NCBI GenBank assembly: GCA_000004695.1
Contig: CM000152.2
Span: 4,896,001-4,960,000, forward strand
Source: Dictyostelium discoideum
Lineage: Eukaryota
Direction of reading: 5' to 3'
DNA length: 64,000 nucleotides
The position numbers and the translations under genes were made by a program. The notes below the pieces were generated by a model. That model was not told the DNA's origin, did not search any database, and worked only from the letters and a program-made list of their open reading frames with translations. Shown piece after piece: positions 23,655 through 23,835 of the stretch. Every line of letters starts with the position of its first letter. Within the stretch, counting starts at the first letter, position 1.

Positions 23655-23835
23655 TCCCATGCCAAAATTAATATGGCTGCTGAAATTAATATGATAATTT
23701 TGGCATAGGACTTATGTCTGCTAGAATTACCATATTAATTTCAGCAGCCATATTAATTTTGACATGCAAAGACCAACTATTTTAGGTTGAAATTAATATG
23801 GCTGCCGAAATTAATACGGTAATTTTGGGCATAGA
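23655..23835. repeat. Cluster of three ~45-bp palindromic repeats (direct, inverted, direct) with the core 'aaattaatatggctgc(t/c)gaaattaata(t/c)g(a/g)taatt'
   Basis: R1 spans 23661-23706 and R3 spans 23786-23833. The reverse complement of R2 (23723-23765) matches R1. Each unit has palindromic ends (tgccaaaatta...taattttggca). The GC content is well above the surrounding DNA. Confidence 0.7.

What the first reader, a model, noticed from the sequence alone, without database searches (positions are those of the whole stretch)
23655..23835. Triple palindromic repeat cluster (direct-inverted-direct) between two family units
Three ~45-bp units share the core aaattaatatggctgcYgaaattaataYgRtaatt. The middle one is inverted, so the 180-bp block can fold into alternative long hairpins. 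Each unit is itself palindromic at its ends. The GC content is roughly double the local background. The layout looks like clustered binding sites, a transposon terminal fragment or a recombination hotspot, and it sits exactly at a junction of the tandem array.
Basis: seen in the sequence. Interest (0 to 1): 0.5.

Follow-up and report, generated by a model that had tools for sequence, protein, structure and literature searches.

The report
Known transposon-derived microRNA hairpin locus
The triple repeat is real, but it is a copy of an already described Dictyostelium microRNA precursor (mir-7131 family) that rides on the multicopy thug-S DNA transposon, so it is an ordinary member of a known kind.

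Summary
Three copies of the 35-nt core lie at 23665-23699 (+), 23725-23759 (-) and 23790-23824 (+), where chance predicts none. GC is 0.32 against 0.12-0.16 in the flanks. Units 1+2 and units 2+3 form two overlapping long hairpins (dG -63.5/-65.3 and -52.6/-50.1 kcal/mol, z -10 to -13).

Rfam identifies hairpin 1-2 as mir-7131 (RF03716) on both strands, at 96.1 and 94.0 bits against a gathering score of 74. Small RNAs published from D. discoideum as thug-S-derived miRNAs (Meier 2016, miRNA_can_D3) match here. AUUAAUUUCGGCAGCCAUAUU is exact on the minus strand of unit 3. UAUGGCUGCUGAAAUUAAUGUGG has one mismatch on unit 2. Their spacing is 63 nt, as at the six published loci, and the duplex has 2-nt 3' overhangs.

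The block is therefore a thug-S-derived mir-7131 family module. It is probably processed by DrnB/RbdB into ~21-nt RNAs.

Not shown: expression of this particular copy, which strand is transcribed, the element's boundaries, and the link to the tandem-array junction. Novelty: already known. Interest is low.

The parts
23658..23708 (+). Unit 1 (direct): CATGCCAAAATTAATATGGCTGCTGAAATTAATATGATAATTTTGGCATAG. It is the 5' arm of hairpin 1-2 on the + strand. Its ends are self-complementary.
23716..23766 (-). Unit 2 (inverted copy), the arm shared by both alternative hairpins.
23790..23834 (+). Unit 3 (direct copy, 92% identical to unit 1, lacking the CATGYC 5' part). It pairs with unit 2 across a 30-nt loop.
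23670..23756 (.). Hairpin 1-2, matching Rfam RF03716 mir-7131 over the full model (1-84) on both strands: 96.1 bits (+) and 94.0 bits (-), gathering score 74. The loop GACUUAUGUC matches the family consensus.
23725..23824 (.). Hairpin 2-3, the alternative long hairpin with a 30-nt loop. It is the dominant fold of a minus-strand transcript (93% of the ensemble). By order and 63-nt spacing it is the positional equivalent of the published miRNA_can_D3/D3* pair.
23795..23815 (-). Exact match to the published thug-S-derived small RNA AUUAAUUUCGGCAGCCAUAUU (Meier 2016, miRNA_can_D3-3p/D3*).
23730..23752 (-). One-mismatch match to the published UAUGGCUGCUGAAAUUAAUGUGG (miRNA_can_D3-5p), 63 nt downstream of the D3* match on the same strand.
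23672..23694 (+). Two-mismatch match to miRNA_can_D3-5p, on the 5' arm of hairpin 1-2 (+ strand).
23734..23754 (+). One-mismatch match to miRNA_can_D3-3p, on the 3' arm of hairpin 1-2 (+ strand). With 23672-23692 it gives a duplex with 2-nt 3' overhangs.
   Evidence: pairing arithmetic arms
23664..23818 (.). Six copies of the 12-mer GAAATTAATAYG (up to 1 mismatch) at 23664, 23682 (+), 23731, 23749 (-), 23789, 23807 (+), two per unit and 18 nt apart.
23653..23654 (.). Left boundary: homology of paralog unit A with units B and C ends here, one base before the GC-richer block.

Best explanation
The block is one genomic copy of the hairpin module of the Dictyostelium discoideum thug-S DNA transposon. 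This module is already catalogued as the multicopy microRNA precursor family mir-7131 (Rfam RF03716) and as 'thug-S derived miRNAs'. Proposed mechanism: a transcript crossing the block folds into a long, near-perfect hairpin. On the + strand, units 1 and 2 pair around a 13-nt loop. On the - strand, units 3 and 2 pair around a 30-nt loop. The nuclear Dicer DrnB, with its dsRNA-binding partner RbdB, cuts out a ~21-nt duplex with 2-nt 3' overhangs (UAUGGCUGCUGAAAUUAAU... and AUUAAUUUC[A/G]GCAGCCAUAUU). One strand is then loaded into an Argonaute. Shown here: the repeat architecture, the two hairpins and their stability, the above-threshold match to mir-7131, and the matches to published small RNAs with the right spacing and overhangs. 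Taken from the literature: the link to thug-S, multicopy status, dependence on RbdB, increase in agnA- cells, and expression mainly late in development. Inferred: that this copy is transcribed and processed, which strand is used, and that the three-unit layout is the conserved thug-S module. The last point rests on miRBase/Rfam describing the 1-2 type hairpin while Meier's coordinates fit the 2-3 type.
For: Rfam cmscan gives mir-7131 at 23670-23756, 96.1 bits (+) and 94.0 bits (-) against a gathering score of 74, E about 1e-20, full model length, with the loop sequence conserved. Folding gives -63.5/-65.3 kcal/mol (z about -13) for hairpin 1-2 and -52.6/-50.1 (z about -10) for hairpin 2-3. In a 211-nt context, hairpin 1-2 takes 98% of the + strand ensemble and hairpin 3-2 takes 93% of the - strand ensemble. 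Meier et al. [quoted passage not shown] In the window these match only inside the block: exact at 23795-23815 (-), and 1-2 mismatches at four other sites. Their S4 Table gives six loci on chromosomes 2, 3 and 5, with D3* 63 nt upstream of D3 at most of them. The same order and 63-nt spacing occur here on the minus strand (23815 to 23752). Liao et al. [quoted passage not shown] Only this block and one other site in the window are non-low-complexity long hairpins.
Against: No expression data for this copy could be examined. The published D3-5p sequence has no exact match here, so reads assigned to the family may come from other copies. No thug-S coding sequence flanks the block: there are no meaningful ORFs, and flank GC is 0.12-0.16. 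It is therefore at best a solo fragment that may lack a promoter. Arm naming and strand in Meier's tables are mutually inconsistent, which weakens the assignment of their pair to the 2-3 type hairpin. Near-perfect long hairpins from transposons can be siRNA sources rather than true miRNAs.
Confidence: 0.85

Rival explanations
1. The block is an inert relic: a decayed solo fragment of thug-S that is not transcribed or processed at this site. On this view the family's small RNAs come from other copies, and the block is junk DNA that merely resembles a miRNA precursor.
For: No thug-S ORF or obvious promoter lies beside it, and the flanks are ordinary 12-16% GC spacer. This copy differs from the Rfam consensus by about four substitutions and a 3-nt insertion next to the loop. 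It also differs from the published D3-5p by 1-3 mismatches. Liao 2018 excluded thug-S loci from pri-miRNA analysis because they are multicopy.
Against: Both hairpins are still almost perfectly paired (92-94% complementary, z -10 to -13). One published mature sequence is retained exactly. T-rich tracts followed by G, like the reported pri-miRNA start motif, lie on both sides, so read-through or local initiation is plausible.
Confidence: 0.3
2. The six GAAATTAATATG subrepeats (orientation + + - - + +, 18 nt apart within each unit) are binding sites for a protein. The protein could be the unknown thug transposase, as with subterminal repeats of other DNA transposons, or a host factor. On this view hairpin formation and small RNAs are by-products.
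For: Six of the nine such 12-mers (up to 1 mismatch) in the window are in the block, against about 4 expected in the whole window. The direct repeat inside each arm is not required by a miRNA hairpin. Dictyostelium DNA transposases are uncharacterised (PMC5633606).
Against: No protein or binding data exist. The literature places the hairpin in the 'intron' of the thug-S gene model, not at its ends. The sequence is documented as a source of RbdB-dependent ~21-nt RNAs.
Confidence: 0.1
3. The palindromic block acts at the DNA level as a cruciform-forming recombination or fragility site, and it created or shaped the junction of the tandem array of small Cys-rich secreted protein genes.
For: The block starts one base after the end of paralog unit A. 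The same array carries a 123-bp inverted segment (23130-23252 against 24880-24758, 97.6%), showing recent rearrangement nearby.
Against: Units B and C lose homology with each other at the same point (25300/28170) with no such block. The boundary therefore exists independently of it. No target-site duplication or empty site could be defined. No other copy of the block lies at other junctions in the window.
Confidence: 0.05

Closest known systems
ddi-mir-7131 microRNA precursor family (Rfam RF03716; miRBase, from Avesson et al. 2012)
   Same: The full-length covariance-model match is above the gathering score on both strands. The arm sequences are the same and the loop GACUUAUGUC is conserved.
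   Different: This copy has about four substitutions and a 3-nt insertion (UAG) beside the loop relative to the consensus. The Rfam model covers only units 1-2 and does not describe the third unit or the second, overlapping hairpin.
thug-S derived miRNAs / miRNA_can_D3 (Meier et al. 2016, PMC4894637)
   Same: D3* matches exactly and D3 with one mismatch, in the same order, with the same 63-nt spacing as at most of their six genomic loci and with 2-nt overhang geometry.
   Different: D3 has no exact copy here. Whether this is their chromosome 3 locus (4529841-4529926) could not be checked. Here no thug-S gene model surrounds the hairpin.
thug-S DNA transposon of D. discoideum (Glockner et al. 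2001; thug elements are about 0.1% of the genome, PMC5633606)
   Same: It is the source element of these hairpins according to two papers, and it is a GC-richer island in AT-rich spacer.
   Different: Only about 180 bp are present, with no adjoining ORF. Termini and target-site duplication are not identifiable, and the consensus was not available for alignment.
MITE/palindromic-transposon-derived miRNAs in other eukaryotes (e.g. human mir-548 from Made1; plant MITE-derived MIR genes) - recalled from general knowledge
   Same: The inverted repeats of a DNA transposon supply a ready-made long hairpin, which the Dicer machinery turns into ~21-22-nt RNAs. Both are multicopy families.
   Different: The lineage and element are unrelated, so the resemblance is by analogy only. 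Here the hairpin is said to lie inside the element rather than being formed by its terminal inverted repeats.

Membership tests
mir-7131 (Rfam RF03716) | Covariance-model score at or above the curated gathering score (74 bits) | tested here: met
   96.1 bits (+) and 94.0 bits (-), model positions 1-84 of 84
mir-7131 (Rfam RF03716) | Stable stem-loop precursor | tested here: met
   -63.5/-65.3 kcal/mol, z -13.2/-13.1, 0 of 200 shuffles as good
mir-7131 (Rfam RF03716) | Mature and star sequences on opposite arms forming a duplex with about 2-nt 3' overhangs | tested here: met
   Published D3/D3* sequences map to opposite arms of both hairpins. Pairing arithmetic from the arms gives 2-nt overhangs for 21-nt species.
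mir-7131 (Rfam RF03716) | Discrete ~21-nt reads from this locus, dependent on DrnB/RbdB | not testable with these tools
   Only family-level data from the literature: reduced in rbdB-, raised in agnA-
thug-S DNA transposon | Sequence similarity to the thug-S consensus | not testable with these tools
   Glockner 2001, Avesson 2012 and Repbase are not held. The link is indirect, through small RNAs published as thug-S-derived.
thug-S DNA transposon | Dispersed, multicopy in the genome | not testable with these tools
   Only one locus in the 64-kb window. The host genome is absent from the searchable collections. The literature lists six loci on chromosomes 2, 3 and 5.
thug-S DNA transposon | Defined termini and target-site duplication, or an empty paralogous site | tested here: inconclusive
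   The left edge coincides with the end of paralog homology at 23653. Paralogs B and C also diverge from each other there, so there is no empty site. No flanking duplication is evident.
thug-S DNA transposon | Adjoining thug-S coding exons (the hairpin is described as intronic) | tested here: not met
   No non-low-complexity ORF of 40 aa or more within about 700 bp on either side except the array's own small gene. Flank GC is 0.12-0.16. This copy would be a solo fragment.

The most novel reading that the evidence does not exclude
The direct-inverted-direct triple is a conserved 'two-way' precursor design. The shared middle unit lets a transcript of either strand fold the first two units it contains into a Dicer substrate (1-2 on the + strand, 3-2 on the - strand). 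One module would then yield related but distinct miRNA/miRNA* pairs from both strands. This solo copy, detached from any thug-S gene and sitting in the 3' spacer of a secreted-protein gene array, would have been captured as a host regulatory locus.
Probability: 0.15. Interest if true: 0.4.

Novelty: already known. Interest (0 to 1): 0.15.

Why it matters
It matters little as a discovery. The sequence belongs to a catalogued miRNA family carried by a catalogued transposon. The result is useful as a clean explanation of a striking raw-sequence pattern. It also gives a small refinement: the Rfam model describes only two of the three units, while published small-RNA coordinates fit the other, overlapping hairpin. 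The full three-unit module with two alternative hairpins is therefore probably the real unit of this family. [quoted passage not shown]

Tried and rejected
1. I scanned the JGI metagenome and the prokaryotic genome collections for ATATGGCTGCYGAAATTAAT. The scans returned 16 and 4 loci, all single hits with 8-16 mismatches to the 35-nt core and no inverted partner. These are chance or coding matches, and the collections hold no Dictyostelium DNA.

2. I tried to fetch the source contig or orthologous loci through exact products of three window ORFs. None is on record. A homology search with the 396-aa LRR protein gave at best 45% identity, to Polysphondylium violaceum. The host genome is therefore not in the searchable protein collection, and genome-wide copy number could not be computed.

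3. I attempted an empty-site analysis with the paralogous array units. All three units diverge from each other at the same point, so it says nothing about insertion. A permissive BLAST suggested that unit B continues weakly into unit 1 (to 23705/25365). I rejected this as AT-rich noise, because stricter scoring stops at 23653/25309 and part of that B stretch (25336 onward) belongs to a separate repeat shared with 27284-27356.

4. A possible outer inverted repeat, GTCCCATG (23654) against CATGGGA (23921), is only 7 nt and I did not treat it as significant.

5. Avesson 2012, Glockner 2001 and the genome paper are not held. The supplements of Liao 2018 and Edelbroek 2024 contain neither '7131' nor the arm sequences.

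6. Sub-threshold Rfam hits to plant MIR families (MIR8742, MIR5512 and others) are generic long-hairpin matches far below their gathering scores.

7. Pfam gave no family for the small Cys-rich proteins of the array.

Full report
OBSERVATION. The degenerate 35-nt core matches exactly three times, at 23665-23699 (+), 23725-23759 (-) and 23790-23824 (+). There is no further match in the 64-kb window even with three mismatches, and none in 100 shuffles. Units 1 and 2 form inverted arms of 48 nt (23658-23705 / 23719-23766), 92% complementary and 13 nt apart. Units 2 and 3 form arms of 35 nt (23725-23759 / 23790-23824), 94% complementary and 30 nt apart. Units 1 and 3 are 92% identical direct copies. 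GC is 0.32 in the block, against 0.156 and 0.124 in the flanking kilobases. Each unit contains two direct copies of GAAATTAATATG 18 nt apart. Six of the nine such 12-mers (up to 1 mismatch) in the window are in the block. Only unit 1 has clearly self-complementary ends. A scan of the whole window for hairpin-type inverted repeats returns mostly poly(A)/poly(T) pairs. This block and one other site (28421-28608) are the only non-low-complexity long hairpins.

SETTING. The window is very AT-rich (GC 0.224). It carries long homopolymer and triplet runs, two U4 snRNA genes and a TOR-kinase gene. Together with the results below, this points to Dictyostelium discoideum. The block lies in a spacer of a small array of paralogous units: A 22906-23653, B 24543-25309 and C 27551-28170, which are 72-84% identical. 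Units B and C each encode a ~70-aa signal-peptide, Cys-rich protein with no Pfam family; in unit A only a 42-aa partial reading frame of this gene remains and part of the gene region is inverted. Homology of A with B and C ends at 23653, one base before the block. However, B and C also stop resembling each other at the equivalent point. The boundary therefore exists without the block, and no 'empty site' can be defined.

IDENTITY. A search of all Rfam families at gathering thresholds gives mir-7131 (RF03716) at 23670-23756 on the + strand (96.1 bits) and at 23668-23754 on the - strand (94.0 bits). The gathering score is 74, and the match covers model positions 1-84 of 84. The alignment shows both arms and the loop (GACUUAUGUC) matching the family consensus. 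This copy differs by about four substitutions and a 3-nt insertion beside the loop. All other Rfam hits in the region are generic long-hairpin matches far below threshold.

LITERATURE. Liao et al. [quoted passage not shown] 2012. Meier et al. [quoted passage not shown] Their Table 2 gives the sequences miRNA_can_D3-3p AUUAAUUUCGGCAGCCAUAUU and miRNA_can_D3-5p UAUGGCUGCUGAAAUUAAUGUGG. Read counts fall in rbdB- cells and rise in agnA- cells.

MATCHES TO THE PUBLISHED SMALL RNAS. In the window these two sequences match only inside the block. D3-3p is exact at 23795-23815 (-) and has one mismatch at 23734-23754 (+) and at 23670-23690 (-). D3-5p has one mismatch at 23730-23752 (-), two at 23672-23694 (+) and three at 23797-23819 (+). 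None of the other published D. discoideum miRNAs from that table occurs in the window. The chain Rfam mir-7131 = thug-S-derived miRNA = this block therefore rests on sequence, not on resemblance alone. Edelbroek et al. 2024 found that, apart from mir-1177, no D. discoideum miRNA is conserved even in D. firmibasis. By inference, a 96-bit match to mir-7131 places the window in D. discoideum itself.

TWO HAIRPINS, ONE SHARED ARM. Hairpin 1-2 folds at -63.5 (+) and -65.3 (-) kcal/mol. Hairpin 2-3 folds at -52.6 (+) and -50.1 (-) kcal/mol. All four have z between -10 and -13. In a 211-nt context, the + strand puts 98% of its ensemble into hairpin 1-2, and the - strand puts 93% into hairpin 3-2. The constrained alternatives are only 2-3 kcal/mol worse. 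In each case, the favoured pair is the first two units to be transcribed. For 21-nt species, the published sequences sit on opposite arms of either hairpin with 2-nt 3' overhangs (arithmetic from the arms and the positions).

WHICH HAIRPIN THE LITERATURE DESCRIBES. Meier's S4 Table lists six loci (three on chromosome 2, one on chromosome 3 at 4529841-4529926, two on chromosome 5). In each, D3* lies upstream of D3 on the stated strand, by 63 nt at most loci. The same order and the same 63-nt spacing occur here on the minus strand (23815 to 23752), which is hairpin 3-2. The Rfam model corresponds to hairpin 1-2. I infer that the whole three-unit block, not just a two-arm hairpin, is the conserved module of the element. 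One caveat applies: the 5p/3p naming and the strands in Meier's tables are mutually inconsistent.

MECHANISM. Established for the family in the literature: RbdB-dependent ~21-nt RNAs, and DrnB as the dedicated miRNA Dicer acting with RbdB. Inferred for this copy: a transcript crossing the block folds into one of the two hairpins, is diced by DrnB/RbdB, and one strand is loaded into an Argonaute (AgnB is the suggested miRNA Argonaute). T-rich tracts followed by G lie on both sides of the block. These resemble the reported pri-miRNA start motif. The left tract is shared with paralogs that have no hairpin, so this is weak evidence.

WHAT IS NOT SHOWN. I could not show that this copy is expressed, which strand is used, where the element ends, or whether it is the chromosome 3 locus of Meier et al. 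No thug-S coding sequence adjoins the block, so it is best described as a solo fragment. The host genome is absent from every collection I could search. Three exact-product look-ups failed. The best protein homolog of a window gene is 45% identical, from Polysphondylium violaceum. The 20-mer scans of metagenomes and prokaryotic genomes gave only chance hits. The key papers (Avesson 2012, Glockner 2001) are not held.

RIVALS. First, the block may be an inert relic copy; this is compatible with everything except the excellent preservation of pairing. Second, the six 12-mer subrepeats may be protein (transposase) binding sites; this is untestable here, and the direct repeat inside each arm is the one feature the miRNA reading does not explain. 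Third, it may be a DNA-level recombination hotspot at the array junction; this is weakened by B and C sharing the same boundary without a block. Chance is excluded.

VERDICT. The feature is an already known kind and family: a thug-S-derived mir-7131 precursor module. Interest is low. The only mildly new point is the inference that the family's real unit is a three-unit module with two overlapping, strand-preferred hairpins.

Noticed in passing
window 28421-28608: A second long, non-low-complexity hairpin: a stem of about 80 bp with a 32-nt loop, -63.5 kcal/mol, z -10.6. It lies about 250 bp after paralog unit C and upstream of the LRR gene. It has no Rfam family (best hit 27 bits against a gathering score of 211) and no sequence similarity to the mir-7131 block. 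It was not found in the supplements of two Dictyostelium miRNA papers. It could be another miRNA-like precursor or palindromic element.
   Followed up: partly
window 23130-23252 vs 24758-24880: A 123-bp segment of paralog unit A is inverted relative to unit B and is 97.6% identical, while the surrounding units are about 84% identical. This suggests a recent inversion or gene-conversion event that seems to disrupt the small Cys-rich protein gene of unit A.
   Followed up: no
window 33179-33311 (+) and 33738-33873 (-): Two U4 spliceosomal snRNA genes (52.6 and 64.2 bits, gathering score 46) in convergent orientation, about 430 bp apart.
   Followed up: no
window 38791-45954 (-): A large GC-richer gene encoding a TOR/FRAP-type PI3K-related kinase (2090-aa ORF plus an upstream exon). 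It is a useful anchor for locating the window on the D. discoideum chromosome.
   Followed up: no
window 25336-25408 and 27284-27356: A 73-bp element conserved at about 90% between the spacers after unit B and before unit C. It contains AAACCCAA(A/T)ATGAAACCACCAT, which loosely resembles the Dictyostelium upstream sequence element of ncRNA genes. It has no Rfam hit.
   Followed up: no
window 24824-25042 (+), 27705-27908 (+), 23265-23393 (+): The 'family units' of the tandem array encode ~70-aa proteins with a signal peptide and six or more cysteines (motif ...C..KC....DP.Y.K.C...). There is no Pfam family, and the unit A copy looks truncated.
   Followed up: partly
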